Part shown: one piece after another, positions 19,024 through 27,971 of the stretch
Position numbering within the stretch: the first letter of the stretch is position 1
How the letters are laid out: every line of letters starts with the position of its first letter
From: Methanobacteriota archaeon
GTDB lineage: Bacteria; Myxococcota; UBA727; JABDBI01
DNA length: 64,000 nt
Reading direction: 5' to 3'
Assembly (NCBI GenBank): GCA_013288705.1
Contig: JABDBI010000001.1
Span: forward strand, 9,089 to 73,088
Program-made: the position numbers and the translations under genes
Notes under the pieces: model-generated
The model's input: the letters and a program-made list of their open reading frames with translations, nothing else
Told to the model about the DNA's origin: nothing
The model's database searches: none

Positions 19024-19449
19024 ATGAAAAACGATATCGCCATGTTATTGCTCCGACTCAGTTTTGGCACCACACTGTGTGTTGCACATGGGTGGTCGAA
19101 GCTGATGACCTACGCAGAGCATGCTGCCACGTTCCCCGATCCTCTTGGTGTGGGCGCCCCAGTCAGTTTGGCGTTGGTCATTTTCGCGGAGTTCTTCTGT
19201 GCATTGGCTGTTGTGGCTGGATTGTTCACCCGGTTGTCAGCGGTTCCCGTCATTATTACAATGCTGGTAGCGTTCTTTGTTATTCATGGACACGATACTT
19301 GGGCAACCAAGGAAGCGTCTTTTGTCTACGCTGCAGCATTTCTATGCATCGCTGTTGCGGGCGCTGGAAATTTTTCCCTCGATTACGTTCTCTCGCAGAT
19401 GAAGCAAAAGTCATTCACCATTAAATCGCCAACGACGGCCTCCACATGA
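19024..19449 (+). CDS. DoxX family membrane protein
   Basis: LLLRL…HGWSK, AEF…GLFTR, GAGNFSLD. GGAG RBS. Confidence 0.9.
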   Translation: MKNDIAMLLLRLSFGTTLCVAHGWSKLMTYAEHAATFPDPLGVGAPVSLALVIFAEFFCALAVVAGLFTRLSAVPVIITMLVAFFVIHGHDTWATKEASFVYAAAFLCIAVAGAGNFSLDYVLSQMKQKSFTIKSPTTAST

Positions 19450-23822: not shown

Positions 23823-25163
23823 ATGAACCATCCCGCCACATTTCCGCTCAATAAAGTTGCTGATTTATCCCTCAAAGACTGGGGCCGCAAAGAAATTGCG
23901 ATCGCAGAAAGTGAAATGCCTGGCTTGATGGCGTTGCGCAAAAAACTAGGTGCAAAAAAGCCGCTGAAGGGCGCACGCATTGCAGGTTGCCTGCATATGA
24001 CCATCCAAACAGCTGTGCTTATCGAAACCTTGCGGGACTTGGGCGCAGAAGTCACATGGAGCTCTTGCAACATCTTTTCGACGCAAGATCACGCAGCAGC
24101 AGCGATCGCAGCAGCAGGCGTATCTGTATTTGCGTGGAAAGGCGAGACTGAAGAGGAATACGACTGGTGTATCGAACAGCAGCTGCTATCATTTGCAGGC
24201 GGAAGAGGCCCCAACATGCTGCTTGATGATGGCGGCGATCTCACCAAAGTCGTGCATGAAAAACACGCCAAGCTATTTGGTGGCAGTGACCCCATTCGCG
24301 GGCTTTCCGAAGAAACTACCACCGGCGTGCATCGACTTTACGAAATGGAAAAAGCCGGCACGCTGAAATGCGCTGCTATCAACGTCAATGATTCTGTGAC
24401 CAAATCAAAATTTGACAATCTCTACGGCTGCCGCGAGTCGTTTTTAGATGGTATCAAACGCGCCACAGGCGTGATGATGGCGGGTAAAGTGGTCGTTGTC
24501 TGCGGCTATGGCGACGTGGGCAAAGGTTGTGCCCAATCTGCCCGCGGAATGGGTGCGCGCGTGCTCATCACCGAAGTCGATCCGATTTGCGCCCTGCAAG
24601 CAGCGATGGAGGGCTATCAAGTTGTCACTATCGAAGAGGCAGCGCCTGTCGGCGATATATTTGTGACAGCAACAGGTTGCTGCGATGTGATTACCGGCGA
24701 TCACATGCTGCAGATGAAGGACCAAGCCATTTTGTCTAACATTGGCCATTTTGACAGCGAAATCGACGTGGCCTGGCTCGAAAGCGCTCCAGGGATGAAG
24801 GAAGAGAACATCAAGCCACAAGTGGACCAGTTCATCTTCCCAAATGGCAAACGTCTCACCTTGCTTGCACGCGGCCGATTGGTGAACCTTGGCTGCGCAG
24901 CTGGTCATCCTTCCTTCGTCATGTCGAGCTCGTTTACCAATCAAGTTCTCGCACAGATAGCACTTTGGGAAGACTGGCAAGCCGACGCCAAACAATTTCA
25001 ACCAGGCAAAGTGTACACGTTACCAAAAGCGATGGACGAAGAAGTTGCGCGTTTGCATCTCGACAGGGTCAATGCTAAGCTCAGCAAGCTCACACCCAAA
25101 CAGGCTAAATACCTTGGCGTGTCGAGGGATGGGCCATATAAGCCAGATTTTTATCGCTACTAA
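23823..25163 (+). CDS. ahcY: Adenosylhomocysteinase (SAH hydrolase)
   Basis: [54 protein letters not shown] before ATG 23823. Confidence 0.98.
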
Positions 25164-25179
25164 CAAAGAGGTCAAAGTC

Positions 25180-25434
25180 ATGAAACGTCGCAATACACTG
25201 CTGCTTGGTCTAGGTACTGCCGCTGCTCTTTTGACGGCACCCATTTTGTCTTCTGGTTGTGTCACTACCAAGTCCGCAAACGGTGCGCATGAAGGCAAAT
25301 GCGGATCTGAATGCTGTGGCAAAAAGAGATGCAAAGAGGGCAAATGCTGCGGCAAGAAGGAAGGATCTTGTTGCAGCAACAAAGACAAGGGTGAAGGCTC
25401 TTGCGGCGAAAATTCCTGCAATGGCAAAAAATAG
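25180..25434 (+). CDS. Cys-rich MNIO RiPP precursor (EGKCG-type, HvfA/BufA2-like) with signal peptide
   Basis: GAGGT RBS; MKRRNTLLLG…LSSGC signal; repeats EGKCG, SECCG, EGKCCG, EGSCCS, EGSCG, ENSCN; overlaps the start of the DUF692 gene. Confidence 0.85.
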   Translation: MKRRNTLLLGLGTAAALLTAPILSSGCVTTKSANGAHEGKCGSECCGKKRCKEGKCCGKKEGSCCSNKDKGEGSCGENSCNGKK

Positions 25435-26260
25435 ACCTTCTGGTGTTGGCATAGGTCTTAGGCTGCAGTTTGCCGAAGAGCTTGTGTCAACTAAGGCGAC
25501 CAATGCGAGTTTTGTAGAAATCGCACCAGAAAATTATTTGGGCGTCGGTGGCTACAGGGCTCGTTTGCTTGCAATGGCCAAGGAACGCTGGCCCGTGGTT
25601 TGCCATGGGCTTTGCGGTGATTTGGCCGGCGCCGCACCACTCGACCAAGAGTATCTCACCGAGCTAAAGCAATTTCTACGCGACGCTGACGTGCACTGGT
25701 ATAGCGATCATCTTTGTTACACGCATCTTGCTGGTGTCGAAACGCACGATCTCATTGCGCTTCCGCTTCATGAGGGCGCAGTGCGGCGGGCGGCCAAACG
25801 TATTCGCGAAGTGCAGAGCTTTCTTGAACTTCCAATGGCGATAGAAAATGTTTCTGCATACATGCGAATGCCTGGCAGCGAAATGCGCGAAGAAGACTTC
25901 GTCGCTGCCGTGGTGCGAGAAGCAGATTGTCATTTGCTTCTCGATATCAACAACGTTTATGTTAACTCGATTAATTTTGGATTCGACGCAAAGTCCTATG
26001 TAGACGCACTACCACTCGAGCGTGTGCTGCAGATTCATATTGCTGGCCACCATCGGGAGAGCGAAGATCTTTTGATCGATACTCACGGTGCCTCCATTGC
26101 TGATCCGGTCTATGACTTACTTTGCTACACCTTGCGCAAAATGGCTGCCGTGCCACCCATACTACTTGAGCGCGACAGCAACATTCCGCCACTTATCGAA
26201 ATTGAACAAGAGTTGGAAACGCTGCGAATCTGTGTCGAGCAATGTCATGCAAGAGCTTGA
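25421..26260 (+). CDS. DUF692 family multinuclear non-heme iron oxidative enzyme (MNIO)
   Basis: GIGLR, EIAPEN, HGL, SDH, ENVS, LLDINNVYVN, QIHIAGH, IDTHG, LLERD. Confidence 0.95.
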   Translation: MAKNRPSGVGIGLRLQFAEELVSTKATNASFVEIAPENYLGVGGYRARLLAMAKERWPVVCHGLCGDLAGAAPLDQEYLTELKQFLRDADVHWYSDHLCYTHLAGVETHDLIALPLHEGAVRRAAKRIREVQSFLELPMAIENVSAYMRMPGSEMREEDFVAAVVREADCHLLLDINNVYVNSINFGFDAKSYVDALPLERVLQIHIAGHHRESEDLLIDTHGASIADPVYDLLCYTLRKMAAVPPILLERDSNIPPLIEIEQELETLRICVEQCHARA

Positions 26261-26936
26261 ACAAGCGCTGCGCGATTTGGTGTTCAAAAGAGATCCGGCA
26301 TGGCTCGTTGGCATAGCCAAAGAGCGGCAGCTCGTTTATCGCCGCTTGATACACAACAATCTGTATGACGTCATCATTAGCCTTCTGCCACTTACGTACC
26401 ATTTTGCTGGCGCAGAAAAATTCCGACAATGGATTGCCACCTGGCTCGAAGAGCAGGGGCCTAAGCAGCGCATGTATTGGATGATTCCCGTCGAATTTGC
26501 GGCATGGCTCATGGAAAACATCGTTTCAGAGAATCTATTACTCGCGGAGCTCGCCCATTTTGAAGCGATGCAGCAGTGTGCGGAAAACGCCCCTAACACC
26601 CATCTGAGCTGCAAACTTGGCATCTACTATCATTCAGTGCATTTGATCTCTGACGAGAATTCCACCCTGCCGCTAAAGCTTGAGCGCCCGATTTTTCTCC
26701 TGATCTATCGCGCTGACGAAACTGTCCGCTGGTTAGAGATTGAACCGCAGGTCGCACAACTTCTCGCAAAGCTTGCGGAGGGAGCATCTCTTAAAGAATC
26801 TTTAGACTCTTTGAGCGAACTCTATGCAGATCTGGATCGCGCATATTTGACTGCCCAACTGGCTGGTCTTTCCCATCGCGGCTTAGTGTCGATATCAGAG
26901 ACGCATCCAAGAGATGAGTCGGCTGTATATTCTTGA
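26247..26936 (+). CDS. DUF2063 family MNIO partner protein (HvfC/BufC-like)
   Basis: VYRRLIHNN…PLT, EFAAW, ELAHFE, YxVH, LIYR…V; overlaps the 3' end of the DUF692 gene. Confidence 0.85.
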   Translation: MQELEQALRDLVFKRDPAWLVGIAKERQLVYRRLIHNNLYDVIISLLPLTYHFAGAEKFRQWIATWLEEQGPKQRMYWMIPVEFAAWLMENIVSENLLLAELAHFEAMQQCAENAPNTHLSCKLGIYYHSVHLISDENSTLPLKLERPIFLLIYRADETVRWLEIEPQVAQLLAKLAEGASLKESLDSLSELYADLDRAYLTAQLAGLSHRGLVSISETHPRDESAVYS

Positions 26937-27791: not shown

Positions 27792-27869
27792 GGTGGGTGT
27801 AGCTCAGTTGGTTAGAGCACCAGGTTGTGGCCCTGGGGGTCGAGGGTTCAAGCCCCTTCACTCACCCCA
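27792..27869 (+). tRNA. tRNA-His(GTG)
   Basis: G-1 present, CCAGG-TTGTGGC-CCTGG anticodon arm, C discriminator and CCA. Confidence 0.97.
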
Positions 27870-27894: not shown

Positions 27895-27971
27895 GCGCCC
27901 GTGGCTCAGTTGGATAGAGCACCGGACTTCGGTTCCGGGGGTCGGGAGTTCGAATCTCTCCGGGCGCACCA
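27895..27971 (+). tRNA. tRNA-Arg(TCG)
   Basis: GCGCCCG acceptor, CCGGA-CTTCGGT-TCCGG anticodon arm, CCA. Confidence 0.95.

What the first reader, a model, noticed from the sequence alone, without database searches (positions are those of the whole stretch)
25180..26936. MNIO (DUF692) RiPP cluster whose precursor carries vicinal Cys-Cys variants of the EGKCG repeat
Seen: a coupled precursor-DUF692-DUF2063 triplet. The 84-aa precursor has 11 Cys in EGKCG, SECCG, RCK, EGKCCG, EGSCCS, EGSCG and ENSCN. Known: MNIO/partner pairs convert the Cys of EGKCG-type repeats into oxazolone-thioamide/5-thiooxazole-type copper ligands (Haemophilus HvfA oxazolin, Caulobacter bufferins), and the repeats I know have single Cys. 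Inference: three CC doublets may give mixed heterocycle plus free-thiol/disulfide sites, or new chemistry, so this may be a distinct metallophore subclass.
Basis: partly seen in the sequence, partly recalled or inferred. Interest (0 to 1): 0.8.

Follow-up and report, generated by a model that had tools for sequence, protein, structure and literature searches.

The report
Copper-peptide cluster with paired-cysteine precursor
A soil bacterium carries an ordinary three-gene kit for making a lipid-anchored, copper-binding modified peptide, but its peptide has three back-to-back cysteine pairs, a spacing that its relatives avoid and whose chemistry nobody has tested.

Summary
Window 25180-26936 encodes three overlapping genes. 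The first is an 84-aa Cys-rich precursor. The second is an MNIO/DUF692 enzyme (PF05114, E 8e-92). The third is a DUF2063/NGO1945_C partner.

This is a captophorin-type (oxazolin/bufferin-like) RiPP cluster in a Myxococcota MAG. The 11th Cys (Cys27) is a lipobox cysteine conserved in relatives, so the product is probably a RiPP-lipoprotein, a type already demonstrated for NedA. The accepted modification at EGKCG is now 5-thiooxazole, not oxazolone/thioamide.

The three Cys-Cys doublets are real and rare:
- 0 of 146 candidate precursors beside MNIO homologues have one.
- 0 of 8 hits in a 1.84-billion-protein search have one.
- One other CC-rich precursor was found in the phylum.
- Shuffling predicts about 67 doublets in 132 relatives' cores; none is observed.

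CC precursors do not form their own enzyme clade. The nearest orthologues lack CC, and the other CC cluster sits in a different, well-supported clade. "Distinct subclass" is therefore not supported phylogenetically.

What the enzyme does at a CC doublet is untested here, and I found nothing about it in print. I rate it a new variant of a known kind, of moderate interest.

The parts
25180..25434 (+). Precursor peptide gene (84 aa, 11 Cys). AGAGG lies 10 nt upstream of the ATG, and the gap to the ahcY stop is 16 nt.
   Evidence: Translation. No Pfam family. Weak resemblance to the HvfA model (NF050188, E 0.16, 12.6 bits against a cut-off of 95). tblastn-level homology to precursors beside orthologous MNIOs (47-58% identity, E 1e-6 to 1e-13).
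25180..25260 (+). Signal peptide ending in the lipobox L-S-S-G-C (Cys27 codon at 25258-25260).
   Evidence: Cys27 is an invariant column in the alignment with five relatives' precursors. All 8 representative-library hits also carry a Cys directly after the hydrophobic stretch. That this fits the lipobox consensus is recalled knowledge; no signal-peptide predictor was available.
25261..25431 (+). 57-aa core with ten Cys: EGKCG, SECCG, RCK, EGKCCG, EGSCCS, EGSCG, ENSCN.
   Evidence: Shuffle statistics.
25312..25317 (+). CC doublet 1 (C45C46, context SECCG).
   Evidence: Reproduced in the Logan contig.
25345..25350 (+). CC doublet 2 (C56C57, context EGKCCG).
25369..25374 (+). CC doublet 3 (C64C65, context EGSCCS).
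25421..26260 (+). MNIO (DUF692) maturase, 279 aa, HvfB/BufB-like.
   Evidence: PF05114 at E 8.3e-92, covering 1-260 of 263 model positions. NCBIfam HvfB-family 308.6 bits (cut-off 360) and BufB 275.6 bits (cut-off 310). PDB 3BWW at E 1.1e-58, with the HG, SDHL, ENxS, LDxNN, HIAGH, DTHG and ERD blocks aligned.
26247..26936 (+). Partner protein (DUF2063 N-domain plus NGO1945_C domain), HvfC-like, 229 aa.
   Evidence: PF09836 at 31.4 bits and PF22106 at 34.4 bits, both above cut-off. NCBIfam HvfC at 75 bits, below the cut-off of 142.

Best explanation
This is a three-gene captophorin-type RiPP cluster, the MNIO plus DUF2063-partner class that includes oxazolin, fontiphorin, gonophorin and the bufferins. 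It sits in a soil Myxococcota MAG.

Inferred pathway, by analogy with characterised members:
1. The MNIO-partner heterodimer binds the precursor in the cytoplasm.
2. It oxidises Cys residues in x-Cys-small contexts to 5-thiooxazoles, with a loss of 4 Da per Cys.
3. The peptide is exported by Sec.
4. Cys27 is diacylglycerylated and the signal peptide is cut by signal peptidase II.
5. The 57-residue modified lipopeptide stays membrane-anchored in the envelope, where it binds and buffers Cu(I).

Per-site prediction (inference from FonBC substrate data):
- C41 (EGKCG) and C75 (EGSCG) are near-canonical sites.
- In each doublet at least the second Cys, which is followed by Gly or Ser, should be a substrate.
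- The first Cys of each doublet and C51 (R-C-K) are the most likely to stay thiols.
- C80 (S-C-N) is uncertain.

The product would then carry mixed thiooxazole and thiolate ligands. The CC doublets are a lineage-specific departure in the substrate, not the mark of a separate enzyme family.

My odds: about 0.85-0.9 for the class assignment, and about 0.5 for 'one thiooxazole plus one thiol per doublet'.
For: Shown here:
- Family matches for the enzyme and the partner.
- Overlapping start and stop codons.
- The precursor-MNIO-partner order is conserved in 6 of 6 nearest genome-contig loci and in the relatives' loci.
- Cys27 is invariant, and lipobox-like Cys occur in all 8 library hits.
- Lgt is present in the genome.
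- GC content matches the flanks, so there is no compositional island.
- The enzyme nests among orthologues whose precursors are plain EGKCG/EGSCG types.

From papers:
- MNIO-PME1 clusters install 5-thiooxazole at EGKCG, and the products bind Cu (PMC13097082 passages and sections 12-13).
- HvfA carries six 5-thiooxazoles (abstracts).
- An EGKCG precursor with an SPII signal, NedA, was isolated triacylated and with -12 Da over three motifs (PMC13056109 passages).
- FonBC tolerates A, R or T before the Cys. After the Cys it accepts only G or A among the double-site variants tested, and it rejects charged residues there.

Support for thiolate use: in same-family genus g2, the homologous small Cys-rich peptide sits in the same prs-ahcY-[peptide]-ttcA slot without any MNIO or partner, and it carries CxC motifs. 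One such genome (95% complete) shows no PF05114 match at all.
Against: - No chemistry was measured.
- NCBIfam equivalog cut-offs are missed for HvfB, BufB, HvfC and HvfA alike, so it is not a strict equivalog of any characterised system.
- The residue after the catalytic Asp (the FonB Phe250 site, said to govern selectivity around the Cys) is Ser here and Asn, His or Lys in the relatives, never Phe. FonBC rules may therefore not transfer.
- No DoxX gene is adjacent; the nearest is 5.7 kb upstream.
- LspA was not found in the genome, which is only 74% complete.
- No promoter-like site lies between ahcY and the precursor. The scan found 3 sites overall against 4.0 expected in shuffles, so regulation is unknown.
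- The strong family-wide avoidance of CC could mean that CC is poorly processed.
Confidence: 0.85

Rival explanations
1. Both Cys of each doublet are converted. The carbonyl of the first Cys becomes C2 of the second ring, giving directly linked 2,4'-bis(5-thiooxazole) units. This would be a new chelating motif and would leave the product with up to ten heterocycles.
For: - Ring formation at a Cys uses the preceding residue's carbonyl (reaction scheme for HvfBC), so contiguous rings are geometrically conceivable.
- FonBC accepts several residues before the Cys.
- A second lineage (L105) alternates KKCC and KKCG three times in a regular repeat, which looks selected rather than accidental.
- Ser at the Phe250 site is smaller than the residue in every relative examined.
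Against: - FonBC accepted only Gly or Ala after the Cys among the variants tested.
- 0 CC occur in 132 relatives where about 67 are expected, which argues that CC is normally disfavoured.
- I found no report of contiguous thiooxazoles. Searches returned 0 papers, and the two main papers contain 0 occurrences of 'vicinal', 'adjacent' or 'consecutive'.
Confidence: 0.12
2. The CC doublets are not touched by the enzyme. Only the few single-Cys sites are modified, and the paired cysteines act as plain thiolate (metallothionein-like) ligands or form disulfides in the envelope.
For: - g2 relatives keep a homologous Cys-rich peptide with CxC pairs and no MNIO at the locus.
- Two library hits (P0008, P0010) mix CxC pairs with EGSCG.
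- FonBC is sensitive to the residues flanking the Cys.
Against: - The second Cys of two doublets has the preferred Gly after it.
- The MNIO and partner genes are intact and translationally coupled to this precursor.
- Vicinal disulfides are strained (established knowledge, recalled).
Confidence: 0.2
3. The precursor is a decaying or drifting substrate. The CC doublets are neutral or slightly harmful accidents in a Cys-dense peptide, with no functional meaning.
For: - 3 or more doublets arise in 18.6% of shuffles of this core.
- No close relative exists to show conservation of the doublets. The nearest MNIO is 64% identical, and the precursor has no other hit below E 3.6e-5.
Against: - All three genes are open, and the enzyme's conserved blocks are kept.
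- The family avoids CC so strongly that three tolerated doublets imply changed constraints.
- There is independent recurrence in L105 and two single-CC cases in the published Pseudomonadota data set.
Confidence: 0.1

Closest known systems
Oxazolin (HvfABC, Haemophilus influenzae), fontiphorin (FonABC) and gonophorin (NgoABC): the captophorins of the 'Lys-Cys' group
   Same: - Signal-peptide precursor with E-G-K/S-C-G repeats.
- MNIO plus DUF2063/NGO1945-type partner, in the same gene order.
- Expected 5-thiooxazole formation and Cu binding.
   Different: - Scores fall below the NCBIfam equivalog cut-offs for HvfA, HvfB and HvfC.
- No adjacent DoxX.
- Myxococcota rather than Pseudomonadota.
- Lipobox signal.
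- Three CC doublets, plus R-C-K and S-C-N sites.
- Ser instead of Phe after the catalytic Asp.
NedABC (Neisseria dentiae), a lipidated EGKCG RiPP-lipoprotein (PMC13056109)
   Same: SPII-type signal with lipobox Cys, followed by EGKCG motifs and an MNIO plus partner. This is the closest model for the predicted membrane-anchored product.
   Different: As described in the passages read, NedA has three regular EGKCG motifs and no CC doublets are mentioned. I did not see the NedA sequence itself, because paper reading closed.
Bufferins Buf1 (DUF2282) and Buf2 (6/12Cys), BufABC of Caulobacter and others
   Same: Same enzyme super-cluster (BufB model 275.6 bits), the same partner type and the same Cu-buffering role. 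The same genome carries a Buf2-like cluster on another contig.
   Different: Precursor architecture: bufferins are folded domains or Cys-Lys motifs. In the Cys-Lys group, Asp follows the catalytic Asp, as in this genome's second cluster (LLEWDD).
Bacterial metallothionein-like Cys-rich peptides
   Same: Dense CC and CxC cysteine clusters in a short Lys/Gly-rich peptide. Orphan homologues in genus g2 have no maturase at the locus.
   Different: Here the peptide is translationally coupled to a maturase pair and keeps EGKCG/EGSCG motifs. No sequence family match was tested, so the resemblance is by composition only (recalled).

Membership tests
MNIO superfamily (PF05114, MbnB_TglH_ChrH) | Match to the family profile above the curated cut-off, over the full length | tested here: met
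   307.6 bits against a cut-off of 25; 1-260 of 263 positions.
MNIO superfamily (PF05114) | Conserved iron-ligand and catalytic-base blocks | tested here: inconclusive
   The HG, SDHL, ENxS, LDxNN, HIAGH, DTHG and ERD blocks align with PDB 3BWW. Which residues are ligands is recalled from the literature, not computed here. The catalytic Asp of ERD corresponds to FonB-Asp249 according to PMC13097082.
Captophorin / MNIO-PME1 cluster (PMC13097082) | DUF2063-type partner (PME1) encoded next to the MNIO | tested here: met
   PF09836 and PF22106 are both above cut-off, and the gene overlaps the MNIO stop by 14 nt.
Captophorin / MNIO-PME1 cluster | Cys-rich precursor with a signal peptide and Lys-Cys 5-mer repeats | tested here: met
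   EGKCG, EGKCCG, EGSCCS and EGSCG follow a hydrophobic N-terminus. Homologous to precursors at orthologous loci. The repeats are degenerate: there is only one exact EGKCG.
Captophorin / MNIO-PME1 cluster | 5-thiooxazole on Cys, and Cu binding | not testable with these tools
   Needs MS, UV, NMR and metal titration.
HvfABC equivalogs (NCBIfam NF003818, NF050145, NF050188) | Score above the equivalog cut-off | tested here: not met
   HvfB 308.6 against 360; HvfC 75 against 142; HvfA 12.6 against 95.
BufB equivalog (NF050167) | Score above the equivalog cut-off | tested here: not met
   275.6 against 310.
RiPP-lipoproteins (SPII-processed MNIO products, PMC13056109) | Lipobox with an invariant Cys at the end of the signal peptide | tested here: met
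   LSSGC; Cys27 is invariant in 6 of 6 aligned sequences. Relatives show LIGTGC, VVGAGC, MTGC and similar. No SignalP was available, and the fit to the consensus is recalled.
RiPP-lipoproteins | Lipoprotein-processing enzymes present in the genome | tested here: inconclusive
   Lgt (PF01790) found twice. LspA (PF01252) not found in a 74%-complete genome.
A separate 'CC-type' subclass | CC precursors pair with their own enzyme clade | tested here: not met
   In the tree of 30 MNIOs, the two CC-associated enzymes lie on opposite sides of a 100/100 branch, each among non-CC neighbours.

The most novel reading that the evidence does not exclude
The MNIO converts both cysteines of each CC doublet and creates directly linked 2,4'-bis(5-thiooxazole) units on a lipid-anchored peptide. 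This would be a previously undescribed bidentate sulfur/nitrogen chelator, and the first contiguous heterocycles made by an MNIO. The Ser after the catalytic Asp (Phe in the Pseudomonadota Lys-Cys group) would be the change that makes room for it.
Probability: 0.12. Interest if true: 0.75.

Novelty: new variant of a known kind. Interest (0 to 1): 0.4.

Why it matters
[quoted passage not shown] Even so, the rules that decide which Cys is converted are known for one enzyme only.

Across 132 relatives the family shuns adjacent cysteines (0 observed, about 67 expected). The rare natural exceptions, this precursor and the L105 one, are therefore ready-made probes of enzyme selectivity. They also test whether thiolate and thiooxazole ligands are mixed in one metallophore.

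The locus also extends lipidated EGKCG peptides to Myxococcota, which the published survey (restricted to Pseudomonadota reference genomes) did not cover. In a sister genus the peptide persists after the maturase genes are gone. That offers a natural comparison of modified and unmodified Cys-rich copper peptides.

Tried and rejected
- Word-index protein search with the precursor returned only itself among 17 candidates. The peptide is short and low-complexity, so this says little.
- Metagenome scan with the MNIO found no close relative. The best was 60% identity, so conservation of the doublets could not be tested.
- The promoter and terminator scan was uninformative: 3 promoter-like sites against 4.0 expected.
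- Composition shows no island.
- Synteny with ahcY and ttcA is not shared by the other clusters of the family. It is shared only by genus g2, which lacks the enzymes.
- Four order-level loci (L090, L092, L093, L094) have no recognisable precursor upstream of the MNIO. Their genomes, where matched, encode precursor-like genes elsewhere.
- Sequencing runs: one DNA holder, probably the source sample. No RNA holder is listed, so nothing can be said about expression.
- I considered complex prediction for the enzyme and partner. I rejected it because a textbook pair passing would not change my odds.
- The search of earlier findings was not open.
- Paper reading closed, so the sequence tables of PMC13056109 could not be searched for CC-type lipoproteins. 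They may hold further examples.
- The PDF supplement of PMC13097082 (Figures S27-S31, the exact variant panels) could not be read. Whether Cys was tested after or before the target Cys is therefore unknown to me.
- In that paper's data set I saw only the passages shown for 'KCCA' (2 hits) and some others, not all 38 'KCC' hits.
Full report
**What is there**

Three genes on the + strand fill window 25180-26936:
- an 84-aa peptide (25180-25434);
- a 279-aa protein (25421-26260), whose ATG lies 14 nt inside the peptide gene;
- a 229-aa protein (26247-26936), whose ATG lies 14 nt inside the second gene.

The second protein matches PF05114 (MbnB_TglH_ChrH, the MNIO/DUF692 family) at E 8.3e-92 over 260 of 263 model positions. 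The third matches PF09836 (DUF2063, 31.4 bits) and PF22106 (NGO1945_C, 34.4 bits), both above their cut-offs.

NCBIfam ranks the HvfB-family maturase first (308.6 bits) and BufB second (275.6 bits). The partner hits HvfC (75 bits). All are below the equivalog cut-offs of 360, 310 and 142. The peptide only grazes the HvfA model (E 0.16).

The closest solved structure is 3BWW (E 1.1e-58), with the conserved blocks aligned.

The peptide reads as a signal peptide ending in LSSGC, followed by a 57-residue core that holds EGKCG, SECCG, RCK, EGKCCG, EGSCCS, EGSCG and ENSCN.

**Context**

- Upstream lie prs (- strand) and ahcY (+ strand), with a 16-nt gap between the ahcY stop and the precursor start.
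- Downstream lies a convergent PP-loop/TtcA-like gene that overlaps the partner gene by 146 nt, then tRNA-His and tRNA-Arg.
- No copper genes were seen among the 36 window ORFs scanned (window 336-42717).
- The nearest DoxX gene is 5.7 kb upstream, at 19024-19449.
- GC content is like the flanks.
- The genome is 1.63 Mb in 51 contigs and 74% complete. It has a second MNIO cluster on contig 24, with a Buf2-like precursor and a DUF2063 partner.
- The nearest named relatives of the enzyme are Myxococcota or 'Deltaproteobacteria' MAGs at 56-62% identity.
- One Logan contig of a soil-metagenome run, probably the source sample, reproduces 25100-26300 without a difference at depth about 39.

**State of knowledge (from papers)**

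- MNIO plus DUF2063-partner ('PME1') clusters with signal-peptide precursors form one large enzyme cluster. About 2,000 EGKCG/oxazolin-type precursors are known, mostly in Pseudomonadota (PMC12452194 passages).
- The modification at EGKCG, first reported as oxazolone/thioamide, is now assigned as 5-thiooxazole in fontiphorin, oxazolin and gonophorin. The class has been named captophorins (PMC13097082 passages and sections 12-13). The original authors have made the same reassignment (abstracts).
- An EGKCG precursor with a lipoprotein signal (NedA) was isolated triacylated and modified at its three motifs (PMC13056109 passages).
- FonBC tolerates Ala, Arg or Thr before the Cys. After the Cys it accepted only Gly or Ala in the double-site panel, and it rejected charged residues there. 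FonB-Asp249 is the catalytic base, and the next residue (Phe250) tunes selectivity around the Cys.

**The lipobox**

Cys27 is invariant in the alignment of this precursor with five relatives. Nearly all precursors found in this phylum have a Cys right after the hydrophobic stretch. So do all eight hits from the 1.84-billion-protein library. Lgt is present. LspA was not found, but the genome is incomplete. I therefore read the product as a RiPP-lipoprotein, a kind already demonstrated.

**How unusual are the CC doublets?**

| Set examined | Precursors with a CC doublet |
|---|---|
| Candidate precursors beside MNIO homologues in GTDB species genomes (73 of 80 loci had one) | 0 of 73 |
| The same in JGI metagenome contigs | 0 of 73 |
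| Loci from 100 related genomes with a recognisable precursor (24 of 29 loci) | 1 of 24 (L105) |
| Further precursor-like genes found with the precursor as query in 400 genomes of the phylum | 0 of 6 |
| Representative-library hits | 0 of 8 |

- L105 has ADKKCC alternating with ADKKCG three times. It also carries a lipobox and has the same precursor-MNIO-DUF2063 order.
- In the published Pseudomonadota data set I saw two precursors with a single KCCA each, WP_112987617.1 and WP_304846417.1. They are not discussed in the text: 'adjacent', 'vicinal' and 'consecutive' each occur 0 times.
- Literature searches for thiooxazole with 'Cys-Cys', MNIO with 'adjacent cysteine', and thiooxazole with metallothionein each returned 0 papers.
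- In this core, shuffling gives 3 or more doublets in 18.6% of trials. In 132 distinct relatives' cores it predicts 66.9 doublets where none exists. The family avoids CC, and this peptide breaks that rule three times.

**Is it a subclass?**

No, as far as enzyme phylogeny goes. In a maximum-likelihood tree of 30 MNIOs from the relatives, this enzyme sits in a 100/100 clade with order-level relatives. Where a precursor is recognisable beside those relatives' enzymes, it lacks CC. L105's enzyme (43% identity) lies in the other clade, among non-CC neighbours. The three same-family orthologous clusters have regular KCG or SCG repeats. CC has therefore arisen at least twice and is not clade-defining.

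One difference may bear on selectivity. The residue after the catalytic Asp is Ser here, Asn, His or Lys in the non-CC relatives of the clade, Asn in L105, and Asp in the genome's Buf2-type enzyme. None has the Phe reported for the Pseudomonadota Lys-Cys group. This is an observation only.

**An evolutionary side-light**

In genus g2 of the same family, the slot prs-ahcY-[...]-ttcA holds a homologous small Cys-rich peptide, but no MNIO or partner.
- In G017 it is 87 aa, with a lipobox and CPC, CDC and ECG motifs.
- In G019 it is 89 aa, with CHC and CEC motifs.

PF05114 was not found anywhere in G019 (95% complete), G001 or G013. It was found elsewhere in G017 and G020. Either the maturase genes were lost there, or they were gained here. 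In either case the peptide family appears able to persist as a plain thiolate peptide. This makes mixed thiolate/thiooxazole ligation at the CC doublets plausible.

**Mechanism proposed**

Shown:
- gene identities;
- translational coupling;
- the conserved lipobox Cys;
- the rarity of CC.

Inferred by homology:
- cytoplasmic conversion of Cys to 5-thiooxazole by the MNIO-partner dimer;
- Sec export;
- lipidation at Cys27;
- Cu(I) buffering in the envelope.

Inferred from FonBC data, with low confidence:
- C41 and C75 are modified;
- at least the second Cys of each doublet is modified;
- the first Cys of each doublet and C51 (R-C-K) probably remain thiols;
- C80 (S-C-N) is uncertain.

Rivals: both Cys are converted, giving bis-thiooxazole (0.12); the doublets are untouched (0.2); the doublets are neutral drift (0.1).

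**Verdict**

This is a genuine captophorin-type RiPP-lipoprotein cluster, new for its phylum. Its substrate variant is rare, recurrent and uncharacterised. It is a new variant of a known kind, with interest about 0.4.

Noticed in passing
G000 contig 24 (locus L001: 648-2633, - strand): A second MNIO cluster in the same genome. It has an 89-aa Buf2-like precursor (CAGQNSC, CKGKNSC and similar motifs), an MNIO (PF05114, 371.8 bits, with LLEWDD after the catalytic base) and a DUF2063/NGO1945_C partner.
   Followed up: partly
L197 1498-1761 (-) in G017; L206 2220-2489 (+) in G019: In a sister genus, the same prs-ahcY-...-ttcA slot holds a homologous small Cys-rich secreted peptide with CxC motifs but no MNIO or partner. 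G019 (95% complete) has no PF05114 match at all. This may be a natural 'maturase-less' version of the peptide.
   Followed up: partly
L105 100-2652 (-), genome G038: The only other CC-rich precursor found: three ADKKCC units alternating with ADKKCG, plus a lipobox. It is followed by an MNIO, a DUF2063 partner and a YceI-like gene.
   Followed up: partly
window 26170-26181 (LLERDS) and the homologous sites in L084-L112: The residue after the catalytic Asp (the FonB Phe250 selectivity site) is Ser here and Asn, His or Lys in clade relatives. None is Phe, the residue reported for the Pseudomonadota Lys-Cys enzymes.
   Followed up: partly
window 19024-19449 (+): A DoxX gene (PF07681, 56.7 bits) lies 5.7 kb upstream of the precursor, separated from it by housekeeping genes. 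DoxX is a frequent member of EGKCG clusters elsewhere, but it is not linked here.
   Followed up: no
window 26791-26936: The partner gene and the convergent TtcA-like (PP-loop) gene overlap by 146 nt at their 3' ends.
   Followed up: no
window 27793-27869 and 27895-27971 (+): tRNA-His (GTG) and tRNA-Arg (TCG) lie just beyond the TtcA-like gene.
   Followed up: yes
L090, L092, L093, L094 (family f4 genomes): MNIO-partner pairs with no recognisable precursor upstream. Precursor-like lipoprotein genes of these genomes, where matched, lie on other contigs or far away (for example G032: MNIO at C16:4359, precursor at C16:1230700).
   Followed up: partly
The genome search tallies: The family that holds this genome is listed with small genomes (about 1.1-3.4 Mb, some rows far smaller). 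Its order and phylum reach 5-12 Mb, so this may be a reduced-genome lineage of Myxococcota.
   Followed up: no
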